The notes below the pieces were generated by a model that saw only the letters and a list, made by a program, of their open reading frames with translations, did not search any database and was not told the DNA's origin. Source: Watersipora subatra (Eukaryota). Taken from it: a DNA stretch of 64,000 bases. Numbering within the stretch: the stretch's first letter is position 1; each line of letters opens with the position of its first letter. The position numbers and the translations under genes are program-made. Below are positions 41,699-63,975 of this stretch, piece after piece. The stretch is from the NCBI RefSeq assembly GCF_963576615.1, contig NC_088716.1, positions 43,431,910-43,495,909 of the forward strand. The letters are read 5' to 3'.

Positions 41699-44600
41699 TC
41701 ACTGGTTGATGAGTCTGCGTATTTCTCCTAAAAATGTTCAATTAAACTGATGTTGATATTTAAATATTCTAACTGTTTAGAAGCTAAGTCCAATAATAGG
41801 AATTAGGAAGTATTCAAATGTATATTACTCACTTTGAGACTTGAATTGATAGAACAAAAATAGTAGTCATATGTACAAAATGTATTTCAGTTTTTTACAA
41901 AGCATTGTCATCATTGTTCAGTGTCTGCCTAGCTATAATAGTGATTAATATGTAACAATGAAAAAATCCGTATTGCAGAAGATTTGATCCTGCAACTTTC
42001 ATTCACAAAGCAACAAGCTAACCCATCGAGCTACATGGGTTGCAATAAATTTGTTGACCGATATGAAACATTGTTTGGGTTAAAATGCGCATAGCGACTC
42101 TGCGTTACGCGCAATGTCAATAAAGCTTGCTCTCACGCCTCTTCTTAGTAAGCTTAGCAATACGGATACTAACTTACTCAAATTATCCAAGGGCAACTAC
42201 ATAACCTGCCGCTGTTTATAAGCTATTTATAACACCCATGCAACGCCGAGCATTAGGCTAGTATTAGAATAGAATACAGTTGCAGTTAATGGCCAACATA
42301 AAATAAATCAATAAGAAATTTAAAGTGTGTTTGCGGTTACTAACCATTTGCATAACATTTGTGTTTAAAGTTTTCAAAAATTTTTGTAATCATAAAAAAG
42401 AATGAGCCAAACATACATGTAAGGAAGATGAAAATATTAATATATGATTAATTAATACTAATCTAATACTAACTAATAACCTAATATAACTAAATATTAG
42501 ATATATAATAATGAGCCATTACGAGGGGAAGCTTTGATATCAATGGAGGCGTTTTGAAACAGCTTGTATCAATAGGAAGACCATGTCATACATGAGTATG
42601 TCAACAGTATTAAGTAATTAAGTGAAAGTGAATATCGATATTGCAAGCCTAGAAAAAGAATGCTTTGAAGTTACATACCAGCCAAGTCGTTTAGCCTGTA
42701 ATACTTCACTGCTCGGACTAGTTGTTGGGGTGAAGCATTGGCTCCCTGATTTTGCTTCCAAATCTCTAGTGCTTCAAGACATCGCTCTCTTCCTGATGAG
42801 AACTCATCTTCAATATTGCTCAGTTCTGCGAAAGAACACATACAAGTATAGCTAAAGCACAGAGCTCAATCAGTAGAGCTTAGCAGGATGTCAAAGGAAT
42901 GAGGTCAAGGTTCCTACCTTATTCCTAATAAGGTTTATATGACTAGGTTCAAGGTTGAGACACTTTTATTTGCATAGAAAGTTTTATCTACTTAGCTTGA
43001 TAAACTAAACTACATCTTGGCAAACCAAGAGAATATCAAGGTTACTTCTAAAAACTTAATAACCCTTAAGGAAGGTTTGCTTGTAGTTTGGAGGGTTAAA
43101 TTGCTTTTTGCTGCTTATTTTCCTTGTACATGTATATAACAGCACAATGCCTGTGTACTTGTTGTACAGTTGATTATTATTACTATTATTATTGTTGTTT
43201 TTGTTTGTACACTTTATTCATAGAGAATTTTATAATAGATCTCAGTCAACATCTATGACAGAATACATTGTTGACTTGCTTATCAACAAGTACCCATAAA
43301 GCGATAGTGTAGCAAAACCCAAGTGTGCCAGTACCGAAGCACTATCAAGGGCTGACAAGTAGATCATATTTCCATAGAGCGCTTATAGTAGAGTGATGGT
43401 CGTGCGATGTCTAATTTCAAGGCATATGTCTGCATATAAAGCAACAGGAAAGAAGGACCTATTGGCATGCACAAGTGTGACCCGGTTGGTCGCTAAGACC
43501 CTTTTCATGGCACAAAGATGGTGCATCGCACGGGTGTTTCACTCTCAAACAGCAACACTGAATCACTAAAAAATTCCAGTGACAAGCTGTTTCCGTGGTG
43601 TCATAGCAACGCCATATGGGGTGTCTCGCTACCCTATGGCATTTCTAACTGTATGGCATTTCATATCTTCACATGTCATACAATAGTACGAGTCTCAGTA
43701 ACACGTATTTTTATGTATGCGATTATTTCCCGAAAGGTAATTCAGGTCTGCCATATGTAGGCTTGAATTAATGAATGCTATTGGCAGCTGTTTAAAAGCA
43801 GCAGCAAAGGTTTAGTAGCTCTACATTAGTACACAGGCATGACTAGTACACAGGCATAACAACACTTGCAGTTGACATACCCTGGTCTGTGACACGCAGA
43901 TGTTGAGCTATATCTTTCCACCTGGCTAGTCCTGAATGATGTTGTGCTATTTTCACAAAGATCTGCCGCAGCAGGTTTTCTGTAACAGTAAAAGAATTCA
44001 ATAATTAGTATAAAAGATTTGAAAATTTTATAGTGAATTAATTATAATATTTTTCTCAAGCTTGAAAAATATTTTTTGAATTGTAGATAGAAGCAACTCA
44101 GAGTATATTACAAATAACAATTTCATGAAAACTTTTAGAATTGGTTTATGACGCTCAAATACATTAATTTGTTCAAACCATAGTATTCTATTGCTTTTGT
44201 AAGCAAATGGTTTCTAAAAATCCAAAAAGATTCCATTACTGCCCACTCATAGTTTTTTTCTGAAGGTCTGCTTCAGTTCACAAAAGAACCTGCATGTTAC
44301 TAACAACTACAATCAAACACTTCCAGATAATGTAAGCAAAAAACTACATAATTACAGGTATTGTTTAGACAAAATAATTGTTATATATATTTAGCTAAAC
44401 CGATCAATAATTGTAAAAAATTGAATCTTTACAAAGGCATCAAGCAAACTGCAGCGCTCACCTTTATATAGTTCTGCTCGAAGCTCGTTAAAGTCATATT
44501 CTTTGTCTCTCACATCTTCAACTAAATCAAGTCGGCCAACAGCTCGCAGCGCATCACAAAGAACCTTGACCTTATCCATGCTTCTTGGAATCCTCTTTAT

Positions 44601-47600
44601 CCAGGTCAGCAGCATTTCCTGTATTGGCTATAACGAAGAAAAAATTTGTTATCACTGGCTAAATTTCTGATTTTTGATTTATATACTATAAGCGGAATGC
44701 CCGACATTGTACGGGTATTAAAAATCAGCTTATAAACAGTGATAGTAATGCCGCACTTATAAACTCAGCTTATAAACAATGCCACTTGCCATTAGCCTGA
44801 CACACTGCCAATGGCTAATTTATGTAAGCTAGTTATCTACTGCTCCCACTAATACCTAGAATGACGTTGTACCGTAATGGAGAGTAGTAGCGTGTTTTCA
44901 CTCAGGTAGCAACATATATCACCCAAAGAATCCATCAATCTCGCGTAGCTAAAATGGTAAGGCATTTGCCTAGCAAATCGGAGGTTCTGAGATCAAATAT
45001 TTTGCGACAAAGATTCTTCATCCAAACGTTTAATATCTATAGCTGGACATATTGAACTACAGACAGATATATGCTTAAACTTTTAGATTTACATATATAC
45101 ATGTAGATGTAGACTAGTGCTGGGCACGGGTAGAAATATTCGTTGAACTCGCGGGTTTATCTTCTCTCGAGTATCGGGTAATAGAGATTTCGGGTATTCC
45201 GGTCCTTCGGGTTCGGGTTTTGACTTTCGAGTTCGGGTTTTGGTACATGGATCCGTCGGGTAGTGTGAACAAAAACGCGGTCTATTGCACCTTGAGCTCT
45301 TAGTCTGAGGCCACAGGGCATTTCTGTGTCATTTTTGCTAAGGAGGCACGACAATGGGGTATAACGAGTCTTTAAATTAATAGATAGAATAAAGCATCTC
45401 ATACCTTATTTACCATACCTACCAGAGACATTGTAGTCAAACAGTGATTACTTGTCATTAAAAGGTGAGTAGAAAATTTAATACTTAAATCAAATTTTAT
45501 TTGCGCAGTTAGCCAAATCGGCTTCGTAAACAGATCTATGCCTTTTTTAATACGGCGCGTGTTTGCTTTCACCGATAACACATAGGTCCTTAGTCTGTTT
45601 CCGCTATCGCCTTGTAGCCTATCTACATTGTAGACTAGATGAATTCCTAGCATTGCCCTGGTAATAAAAAAGTTTGAAGGACAGAAAATTTATTTTTATT
45701 TTACATATACGACATTTATCATTCTAACTGTTAAACTTCATATCATGGGAAAAGTGTTTATGTGCAGTTTAAATTAATTAAGAGAAAAGAGAAAACAACT
45801 CTAAAGGTTTTCAAACTTTTTCAAGCAGCTATAGTTTTTAAATTCTAAAACATAAAATAAGTCTTTTGTTGAAATAAATTAGGTAAAAAAATAAAAATTT
45901 AGAGGTGTTTAAATGTAAAATCATTAGCAAGTAATGGCTGAATATAGTTTCAGTTCGTTTCAGTGTTGGCATCATAAGGCAAAAATATTGTATAGAGTGG
46001 TATAAAAACCCATAGTAATTATCTAATGCAGTCACTAACTGATAATAATCATCGAAATCACCATCATTAAAAAATAGTAACAAAACAATATGTTAACCTT
46101 AGTAACAATACTTACCAACAATAACTTTAGTGTATTTTGTGGTTATGATATGCAAGAAAATGTAATATTACAGTGTACTACGTGAGGAGCTCTTACCTTC
46201 TAGACAAGCGTGTAACATAAACGCTGAATACAACTTATATGAATGTAGCTTACTAAAAACATACTTGAAGGAGTTTTACTAGCCATTTTAGTAAATTTTT
46301 AACCAGAATTTTATTACTTCTCTGTTTGCAAACTCATTTTTATCATAACGAATGACACTGAACTGAGATATACTCGTAATCAACAAATTTTAGCTTCGAT
46401 GAAGCTTATTGTTGATATTGTTTTGCAGAAAACAAATTAGCCCTAGTACAGCAAGTACAAAAAATTATATATATAGATTAGTGTAAGCATTAGACATTAT
46501 GAAACATTATAAATTTACAGATGAACTTATACAAGATTTTAGTAGAATTTATAAGAAAGTATCAAGATTCTTTTATCATCTACGATTGCTTTTGATTTTT
46601 GAGGTGATCTGACTGCCAAGATTTTTCAAAATTAAAAATGACAAATTTTTATCGAGATTGAAACGCCCAGAATAAAATTACGCTCTAAGTTGATGTCACT
46701 AGTTCCTCAGCTGCTTGTCTCTTTTGTTATTGTTATCAGCGTTACCTAACTCTTGTCTATCGGTTTCTTTGACCGACAGATTAGAGGCGGGTAAGCGAAA
46801 GTTTGATTATTACTTTAGATGTCATATTCACACTAGAGGGTATGAGATTATGCATTTTCATTTAAATCTGAGCTCTTTAACTGCAACCAAGTTTTGTCAA
46901 TTTTAACCTTGAGACATCTATTAAAGTAAAACTGCAAAACTTAATATAATATTTTTGTAGGTATGTTTCCGCTAATATCAGTCACATAAAAGTATAATAT
47001 ACAATATATCAGAAGATTTAATGTTCAGAATTACAAAACCTTGTTTAGCCGGCCTCAGGTGTTAATATTGTTTTATGAGAAATATTTTATTTTTTTCAAT
47101 AGCAGGAAATTGAGCAGATGAAAAAAAAGTCATTTATTTTTTTAACATTAGAAAAATACAAGATTTTGAAAAAATTGACAATTGTGGAAGCTTAAAATGT
47201 TGTTGTATTTTCATTGTTTGTTTGTTAGCTTTCTGCAAATATTTTGATTTACATACATAAGTTGGAGAATGCCCGGTGTTGCACAGGTAATAAAAAAGTT
47301 TTTTGAGCAGAAAATAAACTTTTATTTACTGTGTAACTTTTAAATGAAGGTGTTTGGTTATTTTTGTGTGTGCTATAAATTTAATTAAGTTTAGGTTATA
47401 TATATATCCTAAACTTAATTAAATTTATATCACACACAAAAATAAACAAACAGATATAAATAAATATAAACATATATATATACTTATATATATATTTATT
47501 TATATATAACGCATACATTTGAATCATACGACGAATATTTTTCCAGCTAGGCAAAACCTGCAAAAAAGTGCTACGAAAAACAATCAGCAATTTCAATTAT

Positions 47601-50600
47601 AGCTCTATGCTTCAAGAGATAACAAGTTGGTAAAAAAGAGGCGCTTTAATCCACCTATAGGTAAGAATTCACAAGTTATAGCCAGCTTTTTTTTAATCTG
47701 TGTATTTTTATGGCACTGAACTCGATCTAAGCTAACGTGTTTTCAATGGGTTTATTAATGTGTCTATGGATATGTCTATGAATGAAATAAAATAAAGTTA
47801 GGTTTCAATTTTTTATCTTAGCTGATGTGTAGCTGATGCGTAGCTGATGAATAGTCTAATATAAAACACAGACAATCTTCACACAACTTGGCCCAAAATA
47901 GAATATGATGCTCTGTGTTATGGTTCTCAATTCTCATAACCAAATATTAATTTATCTTAAAATTATCATTAAATATACATGCTACTATATGTGCTTGATT
48001 AAAATCCTAGCAAATCTATAACTCCATTTTTACTTTTACTGGTCTATTTAATTCGTAATTCAAGTATTAAATAAATAGTGATGCAAAATTCCATTTTAAG
48101 AATTAGAATCAATGTTATTACGATATGAAGTACAGATGTTTTTAGTAGAAGTTAAAAGGTCAACTATTTAAGTTATTAGGGTCTTTCAAAGGTAAACATA
48201 GCTTCCTTGTTTCATAGACAATAAAAGTTACAAAAAGGATGCCGGTATTTGCAATTATTATATTACTATTTTATAACAATCACGAAACATTTTACCATGC
48301 AACAATTCAAGGTAATGCATACAGGTCAGAAAGCAGAGAACATACCCCGTCACTCTCACTGTTCACGTGGTTCCTCATGATAGACTGAATGCGTGTTTTT
48401 TTCACATTGAGGTGGCTGGCAAGCATTTTCCATTCATCTCCCAAGTCTGAAGACAACTGCTTGAGAAGGGCTTCATCTATTGGTCCTGCATTTAGAGAAA
48501 AACGTTTTTGTCAGAAGTAAGTTCCCAAATAAATTTTCATCATGTACAACTTCAAAAGTGCTGCATATTTCAATAGTTTAAAAGTTTTCCTGCTGCAGAT
48601 AGTTGAAGTCCTGGTTGTTGTCAGACTATTATACCAAAAGTTACAGAAAAAGTAAAGCAATTGCTAAAGTTATAGAAGAAGTAAAACAATTGCTAAGGTT
48701 ACAGAAGAGATAAAACACTTGCAAAGGCTACAGAATAAGTGAAATAATTGCTAAGGTTACAGAAGAAGTAAAACAATTGCTATGGTTACAGAAGAAGTAA
48801 AACAATTGCTAAGGTTACAGAAGAGGTATAACAATTTCTGAAGTTCAAAAGAGGTAAGACGATTGCTGCCATTCAAAAGAGGTAAGACAATTGCCAAAGT
48901 TACAGAAGAGGTAAGACAACTGCTAAATCTTGTACGGTCTTGTACTCTAGTAAAGGGTTTAACCTTCTATTTCAAAATAAATATCTGCAGTTAGAGCATT
49001 GCTGCTGACAAACCTTCTGGAATGAGATTAAGTTTTGCTTTTTTCAAAGGTTTGGGAGCTTCTTGCTCTGGCTTGGGAAGACTAATAAGTAGCTCTGCTA
49101 ACTTGATGCTATCCCAAACTTCTTCTGAGCCTATCGGCTTTTTCTCTTTTTTCTTATCTGACTCATCATAAATATCTTTTGTAACCATCCCTGCAAAAAT
49201 TCAATTAACTGTTGTTAGGATCACAGATAATAGCGAAGATCTTATATACAATAGCATAAAAGTACTTTACCATTGTTTTGAGAATCTTCAGCAATTCAAC
49301 ATAAAAAAAAGATAAGGTATTTAATTTGAGCAGAACACTCCAAGGTAAGCACATTAATATATTTCATATACACACTTGCATCAATATCATTTCATATACA
49401 CACTTGCGTCAATATTGTTTCATACACACACTTGCATCAATATCATTTAATATACACACTTGCATCAATATCATTTAATATACACACTTGCATCAGTGCC
49501 ATCTCTAATACACACGGGTGTCAGTATTATCTCATATACACACTGGTATCACTATCCTTTCATATGCACACTTGCATCAATATCATTTCATATACACACT
49601 TGCGTCAATATCATTTCATACACACACTTGCATCAATATCATTTCATATACACACTTGCATCAGTGCCATCTCTAATACACACGGGTGTCAGTATTATCT
49701 CATATACACACTGGTATCACTATCCTTTCATATGCACACTTGCATCAATATCATTTCATATACACACTTGCGTCAATATCATTTCATACACACACTTGCA
49801 TCAATATCATTTTATATACACACTTGCATCAATATCATTTCATATACACACTTGCATCAGTGCCATCTCTAATACACACGGATGTCAGTATTATCTCATA
49901 TACACACTGGCATCATTATCCTTTTATATGCACATTTGCATCAATATCATTTCATATACACACTTGCATCAGTGTCATCTCTGATACACACGGTGTCAGT
50001 ATCATCTCATGTACACATTGGTATCATTATTATCTCATATACACATTTGCATACAGATCATGACCTATAAAAGTTTGCATCGATTTTCCTCTGTTTAAGA
50101 ATAGCACCAAATAAGGCTGACAATAGTATAATAAAGTATTTTTATTCAATGATTGTTCAAAGCTCAACTGCTGTTATTCTGAACACAAGGCAACACTGTT
50201 GTTTTATGGTTAAGAGTATTAAGCATTCAACACAAGCAAATCATATCCTTTAGTAAGTCACGTATTCAGGTAAGGAATGTTTCCCACTACATTCACATAA
50301 ACAAGAGAGTGAGAAGCTGCTGAAAAACCTTATTATTATTGTCTAACAAGATCATATACTGCACTCCAAACTGAAGTATTTGTTCTTTTGATCACTGCAT
50401 GCACAAAGTTTATAAAATTAATCTGATAGCGTGTAACCAGGTATGCATAATAATAAGTGTGCTGAACTATTTCGATAGACTATAAACAGAGTGTTTGAAA
50501 ATAAAAACAGCATAACTAAATGCAGTGATACTACACGCCTTAATCTAATACACATTGTAGTTACCTGTGAGTTCTGTCGTAGCCATTATGGATAACAATT

Positions 50601-53600
50601 ATAGTGTACTAATAGGTGACTAACATGCCTAGTTTGTAAACCGATGTTAAAAGTGCTCGTGCCAAAGGTGTTTGTGAAGGAATGTTATAGCTATATTACT
50701 AATATATGTTAGTTTACCTTTCTGCCTTTTTTGCCGCCTTTGCTCTAAATTTAAATAGAAAAAATTAGATCGAACAAAAAAGCAAATTGCGGTACAAGGT
50801 CATCTATTTGCTTCTCAGCACTCAAACATAGATAATATTAATATATAATATGCTAATAGCCTCAACAAATAATGGAATCAAGACTCATAATCTGAAGTAT
50901 TGGATCAATAAGCGGGCTTGAGCCCACACTCTTACCTTCCGTAAAGAATTGAGCAAAACCCCTATAAGAGCTCAATGTCTTCTGTGCATATTTGTCAATT
51001 TCAGCGATGTAAAGGTTGATTTGGCACTTCAGCTGCGAGTTAAATGAAGTTATCAGGTCAACTTCTTCATCAGGTTGCAGGTTTCCTCTAAATCTCACTT
51101 CTAACTTCTGTCCTTCTTTAACAAAGATCTCTTGCGATATCTTGTTGCAGTCTGTGTAGCCTGTAAAAATAGAACAATGAACTTTTTTATAAGAATTGCA
51201 ATATGCTTTAACAAAAAACTATTTCAGTTAAACCTTTGGCCAGGCTTGCAGCTTTCTTTACTTCCAAATACATGAGACTGGTAAACTTTGCTGTTGAGAG
51301 AATCAAAATTGAGTACTAAAGTTATGATACAACTTATTTTATATCATTTTATACATTATACTTTATCTCATGCATAATTATAATACATATGGAAAATAAT
51401 ATCATCTGCTATACTACACTAATTATATAGTGTATTATATACTTGTAATATATACTTATATATTATATATTATACTTGTAATATATACTTATATATTATA
51501 CTTGTAATATATACTTATATATTATATATTATACTTGTAATATATACTTATACATTATACTTGTAATATATAAGTATATATTATACTTGTAATATATAAG
51601 TATATATATATTATATATTATACTTGTAATATATACTTATACATTATACTTGTAATATATAAGTATATATTATACTTGTAATATATAAGTATATATATAT
51701 TATATATTATACTTGTAGTATATACTTATATATTATATATTATACTTGTAATATATATTTATATATTATATATTATACTTGTAATATATACTTATATATT
51801 ATATACTATACTTGTAATACATACTTATATATTATATACTATACTTGTAATATATACTTATATATTATATATTATACTGGTAATATATACTTATATATTA
51901 TATACTATACTTGTAATATATACTTATATATTATATACTATACTTGTAATATATACTTATATTTTATATATTATACTTGTAAAGCAAAATTCAATCATCT
52001 TGTTTTATTGTGTTCGGCTTTTGAAACTTTTAACAACACCTAACTAGTAAGAGAATGTTTTTATAGGTTTTTTAATCAACCCAATATATATTAGGTACTG
52101 AAATTAGGTAAAGTTGCTTTCTAAAATCCTCAAACGCATGATTTAGCTAGTTTGAGTTATATTCAAAAGAGGTTTCTCTAAATTATTTTGTTACTGTAAC
52201 TAGTCATTTATGAATTAATCTATTTTAATTTAAAACTAAAATAGCCTCTCTATAGTCTTACCTTCTTCATCCAATTTCCTTATTGTCTTGTCTACCTTCT
52301 GGCTCGGAACACAGACTAATGCTATGTCTGTAGGATCATCAGCTTTCTGTCGCACTATAAACTGGGCCAGCCTTCGATGAATGTAGTCGTATAGCCTGTC
52401 AGCCATAGCTTCAACTTGGGACGTTGATAGACTAGCTTTGGTTCTGAGCAGCCAGTACCTTTAAATGCATTATCGTCCAGTGTGAGCAAACAGTCTGACT
52501 GAGGGACTAGCCTCCTGCATCCATTTTATCGCTTGTTAATCTTCTTATTCCATTACCCTTCATATCTTATTTCCCTTTATGATTTTTTGTTGTCAATATT
52601 AGTTATTATATAGATATATTACTTTATTAATAAAAAATTCATTTTAAACAGAATTGTGTTCTAAATTTTGCCATAGAAGAATCTTAAACAAAAAATTGGC
52701 AACAGTTGGCCAATAAAATCAAATAAATAGTTTGACGTCTAGCATTTAAAACAAAACTCTTTACTCCATTAAGAGAAACAATATTAGGTTGAAGATTGCT
52801 GTAGAAGCTAGCAAGGATATTTTCAAAATATTTATTAGAGGTTATATGCAAGTTGTTCATATAGCGAAAGTTGAAATGAGTTAAAAACCTGTAAAAAACC
52901 TGTTATTTTACAATTATTATCATATATGGCTGACCCGTTCATGATTCTTATTGCTTCATCATTTTTCTACATGTTTATTTTCATTTTTTGTTATTCTTTA
53001 GTTTTGAGTTTTCAAATTATCATTTAAATAAAATAGCTTAATAATTATTTTAATTAACTTTACGGCTACATGAGAATGCAACAGAGGTAATAACGAATTA
53101 GAATAATACATGTAAGAGCTATACTAAAACGAGCCGAAATAAACTAGCCTGAGAACCATTCAGTCTGTTATTGATACAACAACATATACAGGCGATTCAG
53201 TCATTTTATAACAAAATGTTGAATTTGCAGCTATTTTAATGCACATCTGTTTACTGTTTTAGATACATGTAAGTAAGGTATAATTTATCATATAAAATTC
53301 ATAGCTTTAGTAACAACTTATACGCACATGCCCCTATGTTAAAGCCTTCCACATGTATGACTGAAGCCTTGGAAAAAATGAAAAAAACTACCTATTTATT
53401 GTTGGTATGCCCTTGGATGAGTTTCTCCTTTACTGTAAACTTACTTGTGTGGAATAATATCGGTGGTGACAGATATCAGATCTCCTTTTTTGTTCTGAGG
53501 AGAAAACTCCATCTGGTTAGTAATGTACCAGTTGCCATCACTATCAAGTGTTAGCAAGTGCAATGCATCTTCTTCTTCTTCTACAGATGAAAGAAATTGT

Positions 53601-56600
53601 AGCCATCTTAAGTACTTTTGTGAATATAACTTAATAGCAAAATTGCACTATTTAGAAACTTTATTATCTAGAATTTAAAAAAATTGTTAAATCATTTTGT
53701 ACAACAAAATGCAACGATAATTTCAAAAAACATGCTGCAATATAAGGCTACCATCCATGCAATTTAGTTAGTGTGGAACTGCATAACACAGCAACACAAA
53801 GCGCTAGTATTGTTAGTCCTGCACAAAACCATTCCTTTTTTGCTGTCATATATTTTTGGGTAGTTTTGTAGTAAGCTTTGGAATACTATCAATGAGAAGG
53901 CAACTACCATTATTAATTGCAATCACGGTAAGAGTTAAGGAGACAAACTCGTATCCTGCGCAGACAACCGCTAGTTGTTTGTTAAATAACATGCTTTGTA
54001 ATCTAATTACATACTTACCTTTCATTTCTGGTTCTATATGCATAAACATCATAGAGTTCAATGACATACATATGATGGACTTACATTCATCCACCAACTT
54101 ATGTTTAAGTTTATGAACTCTCTTACTATAACCTACAGTTCACTATCCCGTTTCCTCTGCAATACTATTATCAATCTCTAAAACATCCTTGTTTAACTTT
54201 CTCAATAATTCTTGATTTCTGTCTTTTTATTTGTATCTTTTTCTTTCTTTTGACATGTAACGAAAAACATACTTTTTTATGATTACCAAGAAAAAGTTAT
54301 ACATATATGCGATAAGGTTTAATAAAAAAAATATACTACGAAACAACAGTAGTATAATATAAAAATATTTATGCATTTGTGTTCAGTTAAGAAGAAATAC
54401 TTTAAGAAGCGATCAAGATTGAGGAAGATACTTTTGGTAAATAGTCTTTAATCAAAGTTTTTTTTTATCTATTTGTCAAAAGAATTGACCTCAACTAAAA
54501 CAAAATAAAAAATGTGCCATGTTGGTCACTGTTTAGACATTTGGTCCAACAAACTATTGAAGAGCAAATTAAGGAAGTGCTAATTACAAAGTAGCTATTA
54601 ATAGCCTACCTTCCTTATTGTATGTGCCCAATCCAAATGCAGACGCGGGTCGTGTTGGAGGCTTAGCTCTCTCCTTGTCCACTGCTGTCATGGGTCTCTT
54701 CGGGCGCGCCGAATTGGCGGGGATCGGGGTAATAATATTAATGGCTCTCTTTAGCGTAGGAGTAGGAAACTCCATTTTAATGATCGAACTTGAAGATATG
54801 ATGCCACCACATTCTTCCGGGAATCTGACTTTCACATCAGAGACAGACGCCAGATCAACTGGTTGAACCTGTAAAATATATTACATGAAACTTTGTACTA
54901 ATATCAAGGCATTACTTGTACAACCATTGACTATATGTTTCTTTGCAAATTATTAATGTGAAATAGTCAAATGAAATTAATGTAAGTATTTTTCATTAAT
55001 TAAAGTTATAGTCTTTTAATCTTTTTTCACTGAAAAAAGATTTATACCAAAACTTGGTAGTTTCAAGCCTTTCTTGTATAAAATTTTGTTCTTACGTTTA
55101 TGACTCTACATGGCCATAACTTATTTGTTATGTACGTTGTTATGTAGTTTTATAGTGCCATATCTAAAAAAATTTTACCAAAATGATTAAAGGCTTTCAA
55201 TAAAGGTATAGAAATTGGTTCCTTACTCTGATTTTCGCATGTGGGTGGTTATGTCTACACAAACTCGAGTCTTCTACCAGAGACCTGGGAGTTTGAGCAC
55301 TCGCCTCAAGATCTTAGCCATTCCTAATATCACACTTTTCTACAACTAACTTGTGCTGTTGATCGTTGATATGCATGTATAGGTGTTGAACTAGTGGTGA
55401 CAACCAACAACGAAAAGTTTTCCTTGCTTTACATTTTTTTTGTTCATAAGCTCCATGGTGGTTTATTTATCACTAGAAATATACAAGTGCTGTTTTGTAC
55501 AACACTCAACTCATTAGCTTATGCTATTAAAAAGTGACATTAAATGTTGAGCTGCACATGAGATGAAAAGCTAAAATTTTTAGCTTTTCATCTAATGTGC
55601 AGCTTGAGAAATCTAATATATTTTTGCCAAAATTCTGATGTAGCTGCGACCGATGTTGGGCAGCTCTCTACAAGCACTGACCTCAAAGATGCCGACCAAC
55701 CTACGACTCGGCCTAGCCAGACCAAGAGATCGACACCAGTCAAACTGATAACACAAACGGGTAAATGTTTCTCGCTGAAATATTTGAGAATGTTTTAGTA
55801 CTTATTGACTTTGGTTACATGGGAACTCATAAAGACACATTAAGCAATAATAAAACAAACTACATGTATAGCCCAAACAGTCTGTCATCTCTCAACAGGT
55901 TAAGGTCTACACTTGCTAATGAAAACAGAAGCCGTTCCTATAATGAAACCTCTACTGCGCATTAGACAGTAAAGTTATATAGCTGCTGGGTGCTACTTCT
56001 AAACATGATAACAATAAAACTACTAACAGATTTAAAAAATTAACAAATCAAAAATTAAAAAAGTTTTTTCTGTTAAATAAACTGCTACTGAGGTTTGAAC
56101 CAAAAGTTTTTCATTAAAGAGCTAAGTAGATTATTCCGCATATCATGCAGGCACTTTCTATTTTATGTTTACAAATTTCAGAATATTAAACTTCTCTCGA
56201 AAAGTTTTTTGATTAAAACTGAACAAAGTTTCCTAAAAATTAAACAACTACTAACTAAATGCATACTGTATGTCTTTTGACGCTGTTACACATCTACTAA
56301 CTGAATGCATACTGTATGTCTATTGATGCTGTTAAACATCTACTAACTGAATGCAAACTGTATGTCTATTGATGCTGTTAAACATCTACTAACTGAATGC
56401 ATACTGTATGTCTATTGATGCTATTAAAACTGCTTACCAAAGTTGAGCCGTGCAAGTTATAGCTCGCATTCACAGTTACTTACCTGCATTGTGAATGGTG
56501 TGTTTACTCTAAAAGATCCTGGTCTACACTGCACGCATAGTCGTCCATCTACGGAGGAGGTAAATTTGCCACCCTTCTTAGTTATAACATGGTTATCAGT

Positions 56601-57743
56601 TTTGAGTCTAAAAATGGGTGCGAAAACTCCCAATCCTCTCGGCCGACACTCGACCAGTTTTGCTTCCTACAAGCAAAACAGTAAAGTTACTGGTTTGTCG
56701 TGAGACTGCATTGCTTCTAATGCTTTACCATAGACTGTTAGAAGCCAGTATAGTGAGCATTGCTCTCTACTAGTGTAATGCATAATGCTATGCCTGGCTA
56801 CAGATAACCTGTCCAACTTTTTTGGGATTAAAATTTGTAAATAACAGCTTCTTTATACCTAAACCAGATGTACGGCTGGTGATGCCAGGTGATATTTTTC
56901 ATCTTTAATCAGATAGTCTGCAGGTGGTAGTTTGAAAGGCTGATTCTTAGGAACCAGACAAAGCTTTGAAACTAAATATTGTTAGTGACCTAGTGGAAGA
57001 CAGAGAGCATATGCTTGTGAGGTGCGAACAAAATCGGCAAAAAATCTTAAAATTCACAGCATTTATGCAACTAACACACACTTTGCACATCACACACCTC
57101 ACAGACCGCGCACCACACATCGCACACTGCACACCGCACAAAGCACACACATACACAAAAACATACACATATACAAACACATACACTCACAAAAATGTAA
57201 ACCTTTTTAAACCTCAGGCTGTAAAAGGGCACAACCTTTTCAGCAACATGGTTTATGATAGAGATCACTGCTACGAGCAGTTCCAATCAAATCACACAAA
57301 AATTCACTGAAACAAAGCAACGTTTTCCAAAAATCTGCACTCTAATGTTTAAAAAAAATTGCAGAGGCTTTAATTTTGTGTCTGTGACTGTACAAATTTA
57401 CAATAATGACACAAATAAAACTTTTGTGTTATACATCAAGTATGTATTATCTGATAAAGCCAAAATCAAATTAAATTAAGATAAATATACACAAACATAA
57501 GCAATATTAAAAAGGCGTTTTGAAATGCTTCCTGGAAAAATTTTTACTAAAGAAAGAAATAAATATTTTTACACCAACATAAAGTTTTCTTACTTTTACA
57601 GATTCCAGGTTGCACTCCTTAGCCTCTAAAGGTACCCAATCTGCATCTTGAAATTGTCTCCACATGACAATCAACTCTCTGGAAGTACTTCTTGGTGCAC
57701 AATGTGGCAGGAGAATAGACAGCGGTTCATCAGAGTCACTCAT
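41699..57743 (-). CDS. 13-exon gene encoding a ~670-aa ZU5-like / UPA-like / double death-domain protein. CDS complement join(57743..57594,56666..56484,54868..54610,54132..54019,53580..53445,52458..52262,51160..50936,49190..49014,48485..48346,44618..44462,43978..43880,42825..42679,41727..41699)
   Basis: Every intron is GT..AG and all 12 exon-exon phase transitions are consistent; frames match minus-strand track ORFs 57507.., 54584.., 53846.., 50862.., 48991.., 44391..; ankyrin/UNC5-type UPA signature YWLLRTK...ALVCVPSQKVDKTIRKLDEE; two death-domain-like segments (LGDEWKMLASHLNV...RLDLVEDV and LARWKDIAQHL...ALEIWKQ...LVRAVKYYRLNDL). Confidence 0.65.
44940..45075 (+). mobile_element. tRNA-derived SINE-like element (family 1), inside the intron between the DD2-N and DD1-C exons
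   Basis: gtagctaaaatggtaaggc...ggaggttctgagatc...atctatagctgga shared with 9790-9965. Confidence 0.35.
45130..45300. repeat. GC-rich block of degenerate (t)tcgggt(t/a) direct repeats
   Basis: At least 8 cgggt motifs in 170 bp against an AT-rich background. Confidence 0.6.
48600..48960. repeat. ~41-bp minisatellite (ttacagaagaagtaaaacaattgctaagg)n, ~9 units, intronic
   Basis: direct reading. Confidence 0.85.
49330..50060. repeat. 28-bp minisatellite (cacttgcatcaatatcatttcatataca)n, ~26 units, with higher-order variant pattern
   Basis: Track ORFs 49432..50070 are repeat translations. Confidence 0.9.
51380..51990. repeat. AT-rich minisatellite (tatacttgtaatatatacttatatat...)n, intronic
   Basis: direct reading. 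Confidence 0.85.
55221..55325 (-). mobile_element. short 3' fragment of the same LINE family as 12790-14830, minus orientation
   Basis: Reverse complement 'ggctaagatcttgaggcgagtgctcaaactcccaggtctctggtag' matches 14737-14783 almost exactly. Confidence 0.7.
56270..56440. repeat. 57-bp tandem repeat x3 (catctactaactgaatgcatactgtatgtctattgatgctgttaaa)
   Basis: direct reading. Confidence 0.85.
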
Positions 57744-58206
57744 TAGCTACAAATAGCAGGTAAAGCTTACTTTTTCATAGCTGTTGCGTGCTTTTAAATA
57801 TTTCAGGCTATGTCAGCATTTTGCTGTTGTTATAGCTTTTTCCTGCGAGCATTCAAATTTTCATACTAAAACTTTGATTATTAAAATTTCGAAATGCAAC
57901 AATTTTTGCTTACTTTATCAAGCAACTACTTGGCAACTCAAAAGATCAAAACAACATAGAAAAAAAAACAATTTATTGTTTTGCGCAGGTTTCAGATTTT
58001 CATTAAAATTCTTCTAACAAACTCTTTCAACTTCAAAGATGTACCCTTCACCACAGCAATTCTCAGAGTTCTAATAACCGATAATTTAAAAAACAGTTCT
58101 ACTTAGCCAGTAAGTCAAGAAGCCAAATGAGTATAAAAAGTTTTGCCTTGTAAGTTTTTCAACAGCTAACAAATACAAATAGAAGTGCTGCAGCTAAAAG
58201 GGTTTT

Positions 58207-58256
<50 letters not shown>
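58207..58256. repeat. (TA)n microsatellite
   Basis: direct reading. Confidence 0.95.
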
Positions 58257-59289: not shown

Positions 59290-59810
59290 GAGCTTAGTGC
59301 AGTGTTGTAGCAAGCACTTGCTGAACAAATCGGTTCCTGCTTGCTGGTGTCACAGCAAGCACTGGCTGAACACATCAGTTCTTGCTTACTAGTGTCACAG
59401 AAAGCAACTGCTGCACACATCAATTCTTACTCGAAGGTTTCATAGAAAGCACTTGCTAAACACATCAGTTTTTACTTGCTGATATTATAGCAAGCACCTG
59501 CTGTATACACTGGGTTTGACTTGCTGGTGTTCTAAAAAACGCTTGCTGAGTACATCAGTTGATGTTTACTAGTGTCACAGAAAGTAACTGCTGCACACAT
59601 CAATACTTGCCGGTGCCATGCAAACACATCAGTGCTTATTTGCTGATGTCATAAAGGCGCTTGCTGAACACGCCAGTTCTTACTTGCAGGTGTCATAAAA
59701 AGTACTTGTTGAACACGTCAGTGCTTACTTGCAGGTGTCATAAAAACACTTGCTGAACACATCAGTGCTTACTTGCAGGTGTCATACAAAATCTTCCTGA
59801 ACACATTAAT
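59290..59810. repeat. ~60-bp minisatellite (agcacttgctgaacacatcagttcttgcttgctggtgtcacagcaagc)n, ~9 units
   Basis: direct reading. Confidence 0.85.
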
Positions 59811-59968: not shown

Positions 59969-60185
59969 CTCATTTGAATTAAATATAGCTTGACCATCAT
60001 TATCAGCAACTGGATTTATGCTGACTATGTTGCCGACAAGCTCATCATTGTTATCAAGAGTCAGCCCAGAGTTGAGCTGGTTGATCTTCTCAACTGCGAC
60101 ATCATTTTGAGCTAGCAGACCCGGCATAGCTCTGATAATGCATGCATATGACCCGTCAAAATCATTAGAGGCAGTTTGTTTAAAT
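59969..60185 (-). other. candidate internal coding exon of an unidentified minus-strand gene
   Basis: Acceptor tgtgtttgcag| and donor |gtaaga; single open frame (FKQTASNDFDGSYACIIRAMPGLLAQNDVAVEKINQ...AIFNSNE); frame confirmed against track ORF 59861..60283(-). Confidence 0.3.
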
Positions 60186-61839
60186 CTGCAAACACAAGTA
60201 CAAGTATTGACTATACTGACGTTATAATAAGCTGTCTCAAGTCTCAGGAGTCTCAAGAGTCTCAGTAGCAGCAGAATATGCATGGAAAAAATAATGTTGA
60301 GGAGCCAAGTATATGAAAATGATATTTATAATCAAACAACTCTGTTTGACAGCTTAATAATTTTGCAAATGAGCCTGAAACCTAAATCTAATGTAATCAA
60401 TATTTCTCACATCTTTGCAATATTGATATTATGAAAGCAATACTTGAAACAGCCTTACTAGTTTATACTCTCCTTGTAGTAGTGTAGAAAAGGTTGTTAC
60501 AAAGTTACTAAAAACAAATCAATTTTGAAATTTTTCAGTATTTTGCAGAGTGGTTCAAAGGGCTGCTAGTCAGAATGAGTCAGCTGCATATAAATTACAT
60601 ATGACAAAGGCAACAAGGAGTAAACTTTTCATAAGAGTTATCTTCTCTCCCTACTTTATGAGATTAACTGAATGATCTAATTAATACAGCTCTTAATAGA
60701 TTTTACTGCAAGTATATATAATATATTCTTTTCATCACATCTTATTTTATCACACCAATCTATTAAATTCTGGATATAAGTGATTAACATACCTATTCAC
60801 TACAATTACATTATATTATATATATTATATTATTATTTTATTATATATATATATATATATTATTATATTATCTTTTATCATTAAAATGAATAATACACTT
60901 TATTAACTTTTCATTTTTGTTGTGATATATAGTATTAATTGACTTGTTATGTTTACTTTGCTAATAATTAACATGCTCAATTTTGACGCCTCCTTTTTAA
61001 ACAATTCATTTGCCATTTTACTATCATATTGTACAAGGAAGGGGCGAATGTCTACCATTTTATTACGAATTTATTTATGCTTTGGTTGATTAAAAAGATC
61101 TGTCCAGTTTTTAATTTTTGTTTGTTTATATTCTATTTTTTAATATTTTTAAAAAGATTCAACTAAATGTTTATCTATGCAACTAAATCTTTCAAATTAA
61201 ATTTTGAAAAAACTAATTGAGTCGAATCAATAAAAATTCAATATAGGTAATATACATGATGTGTCACATAGAAGAAAAGATGAAAGGAGATCTGCCTGTA
61301 AAATGAAACAATGAAGAAAAAGTAAAAGATTGTTTAAAAAGAGAGGACAACTGATAAATGTTCACCGTAACAAAGAATATTGACTTTTGGAAACTTCAAA
61401 GAAAGCAAATATGCATGCATGTATATGTACATAGTTAAGCTGCCAATCAAAAGCTTAGACTGCAGATTTTTCTCATTATGATAATAAATATTTACCAACT
61501 GTAGACTAGAGAGATTGTTGTCCCTCTTGTCATAAGTCTGCTAAAATCAGTGAAATTAAAATCTAACTGCCATGCTAATATTTGATTGCCAAAAGACTGT
61601 TTGCCAAAGTGCACTTATTTAGAGCTTATCACTTGGTTACAAAAGATTTAGACTGATGCCGCTATTCTGCCACTTGTAAACAATTCTGCACAAATAAAAA
61701 TCGTTTGAAGGAAGCTATTTTAAGAGGCTGCTAATTGCATTGTTTGTGGCTTATTAATAAAAGGAAGTTTTTAAAATATCAGTAAAGATGTAAAACAAAG
61801 CCATAAATGGCCTTCCTTGTGTTAGCTTAAAACACGGAG

Positions 61840-62140
61840 CAAGAATGACTAACATGCCTGTGTTCACTTGAAACAAGTATCAAAAACCACCAACACATTT
61901 ATTTCTCTCTAAAACAAGTAGGAAGAATGACTAACATGCCTGTGTTTATTTAAAACAAGTAGCTAAAATGACTAACATGCCGTGTTTAATTAATACAAGT
62001 AGCTAAAATGACTAACATGCCGTGTTTAATTAATACAAGTAGCTAAAATGACTAACATGCCGTGTTTAATTAATACAAATAGCTAGAACGATTAAAATAC
62101 CTGTGTTCATTTAAAACATGTCACTAGAATGACCGATATG
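61840..62140. repeat. 40-bp minisatellite (agctaaaatgactaacatgccgtgtttaattaatacaagt)n
   Basis: Unit heads at 61961, 62001, 62041. Confidence 0.85.
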
Positions 62141-62567: not shown

Positions 62568-62750
62568 GTGTATGATGGCCAGTTGTTTGGATTTCTCCTC
62601 TCCTGTTCCTCAGGAGTGCCTTTGATTTTTTCCATTTCGATTCGCCTTTTTTCTTCTAGCTCCTTTTTCGCCTTTTCTTCCTCGGCTTGTTTTTTAGCCA
62701 ATGCTTCCGCCTTCTGCCTCTTATCTTCCTCAAGTCTAGCCTAAATTAAA
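62568..62750 (-). other. candidate coding exon, charged coiled-coil-like (ARLEEDKRQKAEALAKKQAEEEKAKKELEEKRRIEMEKIKG...)
   Basis: Acceptor tttaatttag| and donor |gtacgt; only one of three frames is open across 61 codons. Confidence 0.25.
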
Positions 62751-63804
62751 AGTATCGTCATTTAAAGCTGCCTTTCTTAATAAGTGTTAAAAACATTTTA
62801 AAACGAATATCGTTCCGATCATATTTAAACAATTTAGCAACAGAAAAGTTAAGTAGCTATCTATAATTATATTACCTCTTACTATCATAAGCATAAATTG
62901 CAAATTTTTATCTCTAATAATTTTAACTAACCTCATTTAGTAGTTTGCAAAACAGAAACAAAATTTCCCATTTTTCCCTTTAGTAAAAGAGTTTGCTAAA
63001 TCGAGAATCCTCTGTTTTACAGAAAGTTTGTTGTATTGCTAAAGTTTGTTAAAATTGTTATAGTGAGCCTTTCCATGCATAGTTTCAAAATAAAAATTTT
63101 GAGATTCAAAAGTTAGCGCCATTTTTAAAAAATCAAAGTATCTATAGTTTACATGAAGTAGAATGTAATAATAAAATTCCTTTTACACTGCAAAGTCTAA
63201 TTGCACTAAACTTCTATATAAAAATTTTACATTCATTTTTCACAAGAGAATCGCTATGCAAGTTGGCATGAGTCAGCTATTTACACTGACAGATCTCAAT
63301 AAAGGTCTTGTACTGGCATTGACTAATAGACTCTGGCATAGAATATGCAGCAGCCAATGGTGACAACTGTTTCAGAATTCCTGTTTATTGTAAACGAGTC
63401 TAAGTGCATGTGAACATAAGAGACAGTTGCTAAAACTGATCAACGGAAGAAGATAATGCTAGAAAACAACCAAAAGTTTCCTTCAAATTGGCAAAAAAAG
63501 ATTACCAAAGAATAGCGCAAACACCTTTTAGATTAACAAAAATAAAATAAAAATATTTAATAATGGTTTTATGATGAATCAATCAACTAACTAAGCCTTC
63601 GGAGCAATAAGAGTCACCTCTCATATCTTAGTTAAAAGTAAAAATTGATTTATTTTTGTTACAGTTACTGTGTGTTAACTTCCTTCAGCATTTTCTGTCG
63701 GTGTTCAATATTTTGGAAAGAGTTTAGAAAAGAGGCTACCAAAGCTAAAAGGTTATTTATACCAGAGAGATCGTAATGAGTACTCAGTATATGCATAATT
63801 AATT

Positions 63805-63975
63805 CATGAAGTTGTAAGGCAGCTGAGGGCTGTAAGTGGTGAGAGCGCCAGACTGTAAATCGGAGTACTCAAGTTCAAATCCTGTGTGAGTCGATTTTTC
63901 TTAACGCTCTTAGCGTGGCTTCACGCATACGGACAAACGAACACTGCTCTTATTATAGCAAAGATTGCACTGTGT
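63805..63975 (+). mobile_element. tRNA-derived SINE-like element (family 2)
   Basis: gtggtgagagcgccagactgtaaatcgg...agttcaaatcctg head; tail shared with 38030-38195. Confidence 0.4.

What the first reader, a model, noticed from the sequence alone, without database searches (positions are those of the whole stretch)
41699..57743. Thirteen-exon minus-strand gene model: ZU5-like + UPA-like + two tandem death domains, with no other domains
All 13 exons join with consistent intron phases (0,0,1,1,2,1,1,1,0,1,1,1) into a 2013-nt CDS that ends in GEIRRLINQ*. Exons 6-7 carry a clear ankyrin/UNC5/PIDD-type UPA signature (YWLLRTK...RLYDYI...FIVRQKADDPTDIALVCVPSQKVDKTIRKLDEE). Exons 2-5 look ZU5-like (RLCVQCRPGSFRVNTPF...LHLLTLDSDGNWY). 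Exons 9-10 form one death domain and exons 11-12 a second. Known ZU5-UPA-DD proteins (ankyrins, UNC5, PIDD1) have a single DD and additional N-terminal modules (ANK, Ig/TSP1, LRR). A compact ZU5-UPA-DD-DD protein would be an unusual adaptor architecture.
Basis: partly seen in the sequence, partly recalled or inferred. Interest (0 to 1): 0.65.

Follow-up and report, generated by a model that had tools for sequence, protein, structure and literature searches.

The report
Bryozoan DTHD1 gene with two death domains
The exons are real, but they belong to a larger, already annotated bryozoan gene of the DTHD1 family (an ankyrin-like ZU5-ZU5-UPA-death-domain scaffold protein), whose only unusual feature is a second, FADD-like death domain that I found only in spiralian invertebrates.

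Summary
Twelve of its 13 exons are correct or nearly so. The gene model is incomplete and its interpretation is partly wrong.

The locus is the NCBI-annotated "death domain-containing protein 1-like" gene of Watersipora subatra (792 aa). Residues 27-792 map exactly onto 14 GT-AG exons from 62740 to 41699, and the first 26 residues lie beyond the window edge.

- Its "exon 1" is the C-terminal part of a first ZU5 domain, which begins two exons upstream.
- Its extra 114-nt exon has no support.
- One acceptor is 9 nt off (44627, not 44618).

The true architecture is an E/K-rich predicted helical (coiled-coil-like) segment, then ZU5N-ZU5C-UPA-DD1-DD2. The ZU5N-ZU5C-UPA-DD1 part is homologous to the ankyrin supramodule (4D8O: profile E 2.6e-25, Foldseek E 9.5e-23). 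That core is shared with vertebrate DTHD1.

DD2 is FADD-like and conserved. It occurs in every named spiralian orthologue I checked and in none of 111 vertebrate DTHD1 proteins. So the protein is not a compact orphan adaptor. It is a lineage-specific two-DD variant of a known but poorly studied family. Function is inferred only. Interest is low to moderate.

The parts
62568..62740 (-). Exon (P0001 residues 27-84): E/K-rich predicted helical segment and the conserved NPNNWP motif. Acceptor AG at 62742-62741. At least one further 5' exon (residues 1-26) lies beyond 64000.
   Evidence: Exact translation match to P0001. Residues 1-26 were not found in any minus-strand frame of the window. W80 is invariant in the family alignment.
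59969..60185 (-). Exon (residues 84-156): N-terminal half of ZU5N (…DELVGNIVSINP…).
   Evidence: The ZU5N sub-profile hits residues 75-232. The family profile aligns to ankyrin-B ZU5N.
57594..57746 (-). Exon (residues 157-207): C-terminal part of ZU5N, including PHCA (residues 170-173). The ATG at 57743 is internal.
   Evidence: Alignment to ankyrin 'IPHFA'.
56484..56666 (-). Exon (residues 208-268): last strand of ZU5N (GVFAPIFR) and the start of ZU5C (KKGGKFTSSVDGRL…).
54610..54868 (-). Exon (residues 269-355): ZU5C core plus a disordered basic/Pro-rich loop (pLDDT below 50).
53445..53580 (-). Exon (residues 355-400): end of ZU5C (LHLLTLDSDGNWY…).
52262..52458 (-). Exon (residues 400-466): start of UPA (YWLLRTK…FIVRQKADDP…VDKTIRKLDEE).
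   Evidence: (ankyrin-2 UPA residues 299-405).
50936..51160 (-). Exon (residues 466-541): UPA core (EGQKLEVRFRGN…, invariant E-G…F-R-G-N).
49014..49190 (-). Exon (residues 541-600): end of UPA, with the conserved ELLISLPKPE motif, and the linker to DD1.
48346..48485 (-). Exon (residues 600-646): first half of DD1 (PIDD/RIPK1-like), followed by a phase-0 intron.
44462..44627 (-). Exon (residues 647-702): second half of DD1 plus the helical linker.
   Evidence: (PIQ aligns with conserved residues).
43881..43979 (-). Exon (residues 702-735): first part of DD2 (FADD-like), followed by a phase-1 intron.
42679..42825 (-). Exon (residues 735-784): main part of DD2.
41699..41727 (-). Terminal coding exon (residues 784-792, GEIRRLINQ, and the stop codon TGA at 41701-41699).

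Best explanation
This is the 3' four-fifths or more of the Watersipora subatra (bryozoan) homologue of DTHD1 (death domain-containing protein 1). It is a minus-strand gene with at least 15 exons, 14 of them in the window (62740-41699).

The protein has no signal peptide, membrane span or enzyme domain. It consists of an E/K-rich predicted helical (coiled-coil-like) N-terminus, an ankyrin-type ZU5N-ZU5C-UPA supramodule, a PIDD/RIPK1-like death domain (DD1) and, about 20 residues later, a FADD-like death domain (DD2). AlphaFold predicts one continuous helix running from the last helix of DD1 into the first helix of DD2.

Shown: the gene structure, the domain identities, homology to vertebrate DTHD1, and DD2 being conserved in spiralian orthologues and missing from vertebrate DTHD1.

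Inferred: the protein is a non-catalytic scaffold. Its ZU5-ZU5-UPA block docks it onto a partner, by analogy with ankyrin-spectrin binding and with PIDD1 recruitment to centrioles, which depends on ANKRD26. Its DDs make homotypic DD contacts that sequester or bridge DD adaptors, as reported for human DTHD1 and MYD88. In spiralians the added DD2 would make the molecule bivalent, able to engage two DD partners or to offer a pre-formed DD pair. It is probably not self-cleaving, because the position of the PIDD1 HFS cleavage motif reads PHCA.
For: Identity. P0001, 'death domain-containing protein 1-like [Watersipora subatra]', is 100% identical over my whole model, and residues 27-792 map exactly to 14 GT-AG exons.

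Domains. Pfam Death scores 82 bits in two stretches. Pfam ZU5 hits 4 of 12 family members. The family profile against PDB sequences gives ankyrin-2 4D8O at E 2.6e-25, with ZU5N-ZU5C, UPA and DD matched in order. DD2 matches the FADD DD at about 1e-12 and DD1 matches the PIDD and RIPK1 DDs at about 1e-10. The AF2 model has mean pLDDT 81.4, with a helix at 605-640 at pLDDT 84-90. Foldseek gives 4D8O at 9.5e-23, UNC5b 3G5B at 2.7e-9, and the FADD DD at TM 0.88 and rmsd 1.3 Å.

Family. There are 193 representatives at E<=1e-30, and fish DTHD1 (P0108) scores 1e-58. Of 111 vertebrate DTHD1 proteins, 95 show ZU5N-ZU5C-UPA-DD1 and none has DD2. Twenty-three full-length representatives show ZU5N-ZU5C-UPA-DD1-DD2, and every named one is a mollusc, annelid, nemertean, brachiopod, rotifer or this bryozoan.

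DD2 is not a recent copy of DD1. The two are 22% identical at profile level, and their introns sit at different positions and phases.

Function, from the literature. Human DTHD1 co-precipitates with MYD88 through its DD and dampens MYD88-driven NF-kB (PMC10011749). DTHD1 was detected in human respiratory cilia and lost in DNAH5 mutants (PMC12310455). The ZU5-UPA-DD module sequesters the DD in UNC5 and ANK2, and PIDD1 recruitment to centrioles needs ANKRD26 (PMC9162469).
Against: There is no transcript evidence from this species, so the model rests on the NCBI prediction plus conservation. Pfam's ZU5 model does not reach significance on the Watersipora protein itself, and no Pfam UPA match was reported. 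UPA rests on the family-profile and structure matches (UPA stretch E 0.013-0.14 on its own).

The Watersipora model (792 aa) is shorter than all but one of the complete DD2-bearing orthologues I saw (mostly about 900-2200 aa), and its 5' end is outside the window, so the N-terminus may be incomplete.

The function is entirely by analogy. The two literature leads (MYD88 inhibition in T cells and cilia proteomics) point in different directions, and neither comes from an invertebrate. I could not inspect inter-domain geometry in the AF2 model (pTM only 0.59), and the DD1-DD2 bridging helix could be a prediction artefact. Orthology with vertebrate DTHD1, as opposed to paralogy, was not tested by phylogeny or synteny.
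Confidence: 0.85

Rival explanations
1. One reading: a compact, self-contained 13-exon gene (57743-41699) encoding only ZU5-UPA-DD-DD, a new minimal adaptor architecture.
For: An in-frame ATG exists at 57743 and the frame is closed just upstream. The downstream exons and domains are real.
Against: The annotated protein continues 157 residues further N-terminal through an acceptor at 57746. Residues 157-232 are the C-terminal part of a ZU5 whose N-terminal half is encoded at 60185-59969, and this part aligns with ankyrin ZU5N and with all orthologues. A protein starting at 57743 would begin in the middle of a beta-sandwich. The 13th exon has no homology support.
Confidence: 0.04
2. Two genes merged by mis-annotation: a ZU5-ZU5-UPA-DD gene followed by a separate small FADD-like DD gene (exons 43979-41699).
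For: DD2 is most similar to the FADD DD rather than to DD1. Deuterostome family members and one spiralian paralogue subfamily end right after DD1.
Against: No start codon is needed and no stop intervenes. The exon 44627-44462 carries the end of DD1 plus the linker and joins in phase to the first DD2 exon. DD1 and DD2 lie in one protein about 20-25 residues apart in 23 independent full-length representatives from several phyla. Short Logan contigs carry DD1 and DD2 in one uninterrupted ORF (P0146: 259 aa on a 1082-nt contig), as expected of mRNA-derived sequence. AF2 models the linker as a confident continuous helix.
Confidence: 0.03
3. Same gene, but its main role is structural and ciliary or cytoskeletal rather than DD signalling: a coiled-coil/ZU5-UPA scaffold of motile cilia or the centriole region, in which the DDs serve as assembly modules.
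For: DTHD1 was detected in wild-type human respiratory cilia and lost in DNAH5-mutant cilia (PMC12310455). It is a candidate gene for Leber congenital amaurosis with muscle dystrophy (PMC3561865). The ankyrin ZU5N-ZU5C-UPA block is a cytoskeleton-docking module, and PIDD1 is recruited to centriolar appendages. Orthologues have long coiled-coil N-termini. A ctenophore comb-plate structural protein, CTENO189, also ends in two DDs (10.1101/2022.03.27.486007).
Against: The cilia evidence is a single proteomics study without localisation. CTENO189 is otherwise unrelated. The only direct biochemical result on DTHD1 is MYD88 binding. I did not test a phylogenetic profile against the presence of motile cilia.
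Confidence: 0.3

Closest known systems
Vertebrate DTHD1 (death domain-containing protein 1)
   Same: Same ZU5N-ZU5C-UPA-DD1 core by sub-profiles built from the spiralian proteins: 95 of 111 vertebrate DTHD1 proteins. Fish DTHD1 scores E 1e-58 against the family profile. NCBI names the window's gene DTHD1-like.
   Different: Vertebrate proteins end no more than 35 residues after DD1 and none has DD2. The literature treats human DTHD1 as a one-DD protein (PMC8564539; PMC3561865). Sequence identity was not measured directly but must be low: the fish protein was found only by the profile search, not by the single-sequence search.
Ankyrin-B/G/R ZU5N-ZU5C-UPA-DD (ZZUD) supramodule, PDB 4D8O
   Same: Same order of four domains: profile E 2.6e-25 and Foldseek E 9.5e-23. 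A PH(F/C)A motif sits where PIDD1 has its cleavage site, so no cleavage is expected.
   Different: No ANK repeats and no giant regulatory tail. The N-terminus is an E/K-rich helical segment, and there is an extra C-terminal DD. Only 18% identity in the structural alignment. Spectrin binding was not tested.
PIDD1 (LRR-ZU5-ZU5-UPA-DD) and UNC5 (Ig-TSP1-TM-ZU5-UPA-DD)
   Same: ZU5-UPA-DD module: UNC5b 3G5B at Foldseek 2.7e-9, and DD1 matches the PIDD DD at 2.6e-10.
   Different: No LRR, Ig/TSP1 or transmembrane segment (Pfam). No HFS autoproteolysis motif (PHCA). Two DDs instead of one.
FADD death domain
   Same: DD2 is 25-29% identical and superposes at rmsd 1.3 Å with TM 0.88.
   Different: No death effector domain. 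DD2 is the C-terminal appendage of a large scaffold, not a DED-DD adaptor.
Other proteins with two DDs or tandem death-fold domains (osteoprotegerin, ctenophore CTENO189, tandem DEDs of caspase-8/vFLIP, tandem CARDs of RIG-I)
   Same: Two death-fold domains in tandem. In tDED and tCARD the pair is held rigidly and nucleates or caps helical assemblies (PMC11874512). CTENO189 has two C-terminal DDs. A paper on osteoprotegerin was retrieved by the phrase 'two death domains' (PMC4442310; not read further).
   Different: No homology outside the DDs. A rigid DD-DD pair bridged by one helix is only an AF2 prediction here. No functional data.

Membership tests
ZU5-UPA-DD module family (ankyrin / UNC5 / PIDD1 type) | One or two ZU5 beta-sandwich domains | tested here: met
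   Family profile against 4D8O: E 2.6e-25, covering ZU5N-ZU5C. Foldseek hits 4D8O at 9.5e-23 and the ankyrin-R ZU5A-ZU5B structures 3UD1/3UD2 at about 1e-10. Pfam ZU5 hits 4 of 12 family members, but not the Watersipora protein itself.
ZU5-UPA-DD module family (ankyrin / UNC5 / PIDD1 type) | UPA domain directly after ZU5 | tested here: met
   phmmer: query 230-339 against ankyrin-2 299-405. Profile positions 346-418 against 337-408. The Foldseek alignment to 4D8O spans 634 columns. On its own the UPA stretch is weak (E 0.013-0.14); the conserved domain order and the fold carry the call.
ZU5-UPA-DD module family (ankyrin / UNC5 / PIDD1 type) | Death domain C-terminal to UPA | tested here: met
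   Pfam Death, two stretches, 82 bits against a cutoff of 22.6. DD1 matches the PIDD and RIPK1 DDs at about 1e-10.
Ankyrin / UNC5 / PIDD1 proper | Subfamily-specific N-terminal modules (ANK repeats; Ig+TSP1+TM; LRR) | tested here: not met
   No such Pfam hits in P0001 or in any of the 12 family members. The N-terminus is E/K-rich helical sequence. So it is not an ankyrin, UNC5 or PIDD1.
PIDD1 / NLRP1-CARD8 FIIND | Autoproteolytic H-F-S or S-F-S motif in ZU5 | tested here: not met
   The equivalent position reads PHCA (residues 170-173), and P0001 contains no HFS. Motif definitions are taken from PMC9162469 and PMC3210808 (abstract).
DTHD1 | Sequence and architecture similarity to vertebrate DTHD1 across ZU5N-ZU5C-UPA-DD | tested here: met
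   Fish DTHD1 (P0108) scores E 1e-58 against the family profile. Of 111 vertebrate DTHD1 proteins, 95 are hit by all four spiralian-derived sub-profiles in the same order. NCBI's name agrees.
DTHD1 | Single C-terminal death domain, as described for the human protein | tested here: not met
   There are two DDs (601-686 and 706-789). Human DTHD1 is handled as one DD in PMC8564539. This is the point of difference, which is why I call it a variant.
DTHD1 | One-to-one orthology (phylogeny, synteny) | not tested
   I built no tree. Spiralians also have a DD1-only paralogue subfamily (P0007, P0008, P0010, P0012), so orthology relations need a proper phylogeny.
FADD | DED followed by DD | tested here: not met
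   No DED hit in Pfam. Only DD2 resembles the FADD DD.

The most novel reading that the evidence does not exclude
Spiralian DTHD1 orthologues carry a rigid, helix-bridged pair of different death domains (PIDD/RIPK1-like DD1 and FADD-like DD2). The pair would act as a pre-formed seed, cap or bridge between two distinct DD assemblies, such as a MyD88-type and a FADD/death-receptor-type complex. That would make it a death-domain counterpart of the tandem DEDs of caspase-8/FLIP and the tandem CARDs of RIG-I, here tethered to a cytoskeletal or ciliary ZU5-ZU5-UPA anchor.
Probability: 0.12. Interest if true: 0.55.

Novelty: new variant of a known kind. Interest (0 to 1): 0.3.

Why it matters
DTHD1 is a conserved bilaterian gene linked to human retinal dystrophy with myopathy, to lupus T-cell biology and to the cilia proteome, yet papers describe it as known only for its death domain. 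I found no open-access paper that mentions both DTHD1 and ZU5.

This locus shows two things. First, the family is a fourth ZU5-UPA-DD lineage with a full ankyrin-type ZU5N-ZU5C-UPA-DD core. Second, spiralian animals added a FADD-like second DD. That gives concrete, testable hypotheses for a poorly understood disease gene: docking through ZU5-UPA, DD sequestration, and bivalent DD binding.

For the genome scan itself the result is mostly corrective.

Tried and rejected
- **Unspliced open frames against Pfam.** This found the DDs but not ZU5 or UPA, so a spliced model and family profiles were needed.
- **Profile search with the full-length alignment A1.** It returned only 2 proteins. The low-complexity coiled-coil region probably filled the candidate list. 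I replaced it with a trimmed alignment (A2) in the exhaustive HMMER search.
- **The look-up of encoding contigs for P0001.** The protein is not on record, so I could not get the sequence beyond 64000 or the first exon.
- **Foldseek against afdb50.** The library was unavailable, so there is no direct structural match to the human DTHD1 AlphaFold model.
Three 114-nt phase 1-1 open segments exist (54132-54019, 54018-53905, 53903-53790). None resembles any family protein, so I rejected it as a chance open frame in an AT-rich intron.
- **DD2 as a recent tandem duplicate of DD1.** Rejected: 22% profile identity and non-homologous intron positions and phases.
- **PIDD-like self-cleavage.** Rejected for lack of the HFS serine.
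- **Literature.** No open-access paper pairs DTHD1 with ZU5. The 2025 death-fold atlas does not mention DTHD1 or tandem DDs.


Full report
**1. The observation**

The window is AT-rich eukaryotic DNA (34% G+C).

I then assembled 12 exons with canonical GT-AG borders and phases 0,0,1,2,1,1,1,0,1,1,1. They give a 1899-nt open frame ending GEIRRLINQ* at 41699.

**2. What the gene is**

A search of 5.8 billion proteins returned an NCBI/UniRef protein, P0001, [quoted passage not shown] (792 aa). It is 100% identical to my model over its whole length. Watersipora is a bryozoan.

Residues 27-792 of P0001 map exactly onto 14 exons:

- 62740-62568
- 60185-59969
- 57746-57594
- 56666-56484
- 54868-54610
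- 53580-53445
- 52458-52262
- 51160-50936
- 49190-49014
- 48485-48346
- 44627-44462
- 43979-43881
- 42825-42679
- 41727-41699

Residues 1-26 are not encoded anywhere in the window. The gene therefore runs off the 64000 end.

- **Start codon.** The ATG at 57743 is internal. That exon is entered at 57746 and is preceded by at least three exons.
- **DD1 acceptor.** The annotated acceptor is 44627, not 44618. The two AGs are 9 nt apart (TAG|CCAATACAG|). The three extra residues, PIQ, align with conserved residues in all orthologues.
- **Thirteenth exon.** It can only be one of three open AG…GT segments in the intron 54609-53581. None resembles any of 292 family proteins even at E<=10, and no DD2-bearing orthologue has an insertion at that position. 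A 97-codon open frame in DNA this AT-rich is not unusual by my own rough estimate (several such frames expected in 64 kb).
- **Other domains.** The protein has a second ZU5 domain and an N-terminal helical segment (section 3).

**3. Domain architecture**

- **Death domains.** Pfam finds two Death stretches (82 bits, cutoff 22.6).
- **ZU5 by Pfam.** Pfam ZU5 does not reach significance on the Watersipora protein, but it does in 4 of 12 family members.
- **Match to ankyrin by sequence.** The single sequence already matches the ankyrin-B ZU5N-ZU5C-UPA-DD crystal structure 4D8O in three pieces that keep the same order. A profile of nine family members raises this to E 2.6e-25. Profile positions 38-234 match ankyrin 59-264 (ZU5N to ZU5C), 346-418 match 337-408 (UPA), and 491-608 match 455-577 (DD).
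- **Match by structure.** An AlphaFold2 model of residues 75-792 is confident (mean pLDDT 81.4, pTM 0.59). Only the basic loop in ZU5C and the UPA-DD1 linker are disordered. Foldseek's best hits are 4D8O (9.5e-23), then the AnkB and AnkG ZU5-ZU5-UPA complexes, ankyrin-R ZU5A-ZU5B, and the UNC5b cytoplasmic domain (2.7e-9). The DDs superpose on the FADD DD (TM 0.88, rmsd 1.3 Å) and the RIPK1 DD (TM about 0.8).
PLSILLPHCA…GVFAPIFR is the C-terminal part of ZU5N, equivalent to ankyrin …VIVEIPHFA…YFAVVSR.

The architecture is therefore: E/K-rich helical segment, the NPNNWP motif, ZU5N (75-232), ZU5C (233-408), UPA (410-580), DD1 (601-686), a roughly 20-residue helical linker, and DD2 (706-789). 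"No other domains" is wrong, but the claim of two tandem DDs is right.

**4. The family, and where DD2 occurs**

An exhaustive HMMER search of 1.84 billion cluster representatives with the trimmed profile found 2321 proteins at E<=1e-3 and 193 at E<=1e-30.

I built sub-profiles for the five domains and applied them to 156 family proteins (the 150 listed hits plus six more). The commonest architectures were ZU5N-ZU5C-UPA-DD1 (49 proteins) and ZU5N-ZU5C-UPA-DD1-DD2 (23 proteins, plus fragments). The DD1-only proteins end 3-65 residues after DD1, which leaves no room for a hidden DD2.

- **With DD1-DD2.** Every member I could name is a spiralian:
  - molluscs: Lottia, Haliotis, Mytilus, Sinanodonta, Aplysia, Elysia, Dreissena, Argopecten, Mizuhopecten, Batillaria, Nucella, Liolophura;
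  - annelids: Owenia, Capitella;
  - nemerteans: Lineus, Tubulanus;
  - a brachiopod: Lingula;
  - rotifers: Adineta, Didymodactylos;
  - this bryozoan.
- **DD1 only.** Amphioxus and acorn-worm relatives and fish DTHD1 have only DD1.
- **Vertebrates.** A search seeded with fish DTHD1 returned 166 vertebrate proteins at E<=1e-10, of which the best 120 were listed: teleosts, coelacanth, axolotl, turtles and birds. Of the 111 new proteins among those listed, 95 show ZU5N-ZU5C-UPA-DD1, none has DD2, and the tail after DD1 is at most 35 residues.
- **Paralogues.** Spiralians also have a paralogous DD1-only subfamily.
- **Amphioxus "ankyrin-3-like" proteins.** A few have a single DD that scores better against the DD2 profile. 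So whether DD2 arose within Spiralia or is older remains open.
- **DD2 is not a recent copy of DD1.** The two profiles are 22% identical (hhalign probability 93.8%). The DD1 intron is phase 0 after …SESDG, whereas the DD2 intron is phase 1 after …RVTDQ, so the positions are not homologous.

**5. One gene or two**

Two DDs are detected. For the second test, the evidence favours one gene:

- The splice phases are compatible across the DD1-DD2 junction.
- DD1 and DD2 sit about 20-25 residues apart in one protein in 23 independent full-length representatives.
- Short Logan contigs carry both DDs in one uninterrupted ORF (P0146: 259 aa on 1082 nt).
- AF2 models a confident continuous helix from DD1 into DD2.

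No transcript data from this species were available, so this point is strongly supported but not proven.

**6. How it probably works**

Shown: the protein has no signal peptide, membrane span or catalytic domain in Pfam. It is built from protein-protein interaction modules.

Inferred from the families:

- **ZU5-UPA docking.** In UNC5 and ankyrin-B the ZU5-UPA-DD module forms a supramodule that can sequester the DD. PIDD1 recruitment to centrioles depends on the appendage protein ANKRD26 (PMC9162469).
- **No self-cleavage.** PIDD1 cleaves itself before S446 and at S588, and NLRP1/CARD8 cleave at an SF/S motif (PMC3210808). Here the equivalent position reads PHCA, much like ankyrin's PHFA, so self-cleavage is unlikely.
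- **DD contacts.** The only direct biochemistry on DTHD1 is human. Wild-type DTHD1, but not a DD-frameshift mutant, co-precipitates with MYD88 and lowers MYD88-driven NF-kB reporter activity (PMC10011749). A cell-free screen also flagged DTHD1-DD pairs with the ANK2, MYD88 and IRAK2 DDs (PMC8564539).
- **Cilia and retina.** DTHD1 was found in wild-type human respiratory cilia and lost in DNAH5-mutant cilia (PMC12310455). It is also a candidate gene for Leber congenital amaurosis with muscle dystrophy (PMC3561865).

My best reading is a non-catalytic scaffold. It is anchored through its N-terminal helical region and the ZU5-ZU5-UPA block, and its DD or DDs bind and sequester or bridge DD adaptors. 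In spiralians the FADD-like DD2 would make it bivalent.

I put about 0.95 on the identity and architecture, about 0.4 on the statement that the DDs act by homotypic binding of other DD proteins in signalling, and about 0.3 on a mainly structural, ciliary role. These two functional readings are not mutually exclusive.

**7. Comparison with what is known, and novelty**

The protein is not an ankyrin, UNC5 or PIDD1, because their defining N-terminal modules are absent. By sequence and architecture it is a member of the DTHD1 family, and NCBI already names it so.

It differs from described DTHD1 in having a second DD. Tandem death-fold domains are well known for DEDs and CARDs (PMC11874512). Two DDs in one chain are reported for ctenophore CTENO189, and a paper on osteoprotegerin was retrieved by the phrase "two death domains". 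I found no paper that mentions both DTHD1 and ZU5.

I therefore rate this as a new variant of a known kind: a lineage-specific two-DD form of DTHD1, in a gene that is already annotated. Interest is low to moderate. The finding is real but less exotic than proposed, and its main value is to clarify the architecture of a neglected disease-associated family.

Noticed in passing
window 12860-14779 (+): A 639-aa open frame with a reverse-transcriptase domain (Pfam RVT_1, E 4e-23, plus zf-RVT). It is probably a fragment of a non-LTR retrotransposon.
   Followed up: partly
window 27292-27693 (+), 31856-32386 (+), 35447-35842 (-): Three open frames share a conserved block (…GKQVRMSSQY.C..E.CYH..AVDG.I…NLAST..EYSPY.QI.LE..YC.KGV.YYNG…). 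They look like exons of a locally duplicated gene family, with one copy inverted. None hits Pfam at E<=0.001. From memory the pattern resembles a fucolectin or F5/8 type C lectin fold, but I did not test this.
   Followed up: partly
window 44618-44627 (-): Two acceptor AGs lie 9 nt apart (TAG|CCAATACAG|) at the start of the second DD1 exon. Alternative use would add or remove PIQ inside DD1. The annotation and the homologues favour 44627.
   Followed up: partly
window 48637-48927, 49352-50052, 51423-51982, 56240-56428, 59309-59806, 61827-62133: The introns of the gene hold several minisatellites with periods of 28-46 nt and 4-25 copies, for example 28 nt x 25 at 49352-50052. There is also a (TA)24 microsatellite at 58209-58256.
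   Followed up: no
It has no similarity to any family protein.
   Followed up: yes
window 62741-64000 and beyond: The Watersipora NCBI model (792 aa) lacks the conserved N-terminal region of roughly 250-400 residues seen in the Lingula, Owenia, Capitella, Liolophura and Tubulanus orthologues (alignment columns about 240-400). Either the bryozoan protein is truly shorter or the annotation misses 5' exons outside the window.
   Followed up: no
related proteins P0090, P0127, P0142, P0019: The family search also picked up proteins with arrays of 4-11 DD1-like death domains (P0090 matched in 11 stretches). A Lingula protein named 'titin homolog' has a duplicated ZU5N-ZU5C pair before UPA-DD1-DD2.
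   Followed up: no
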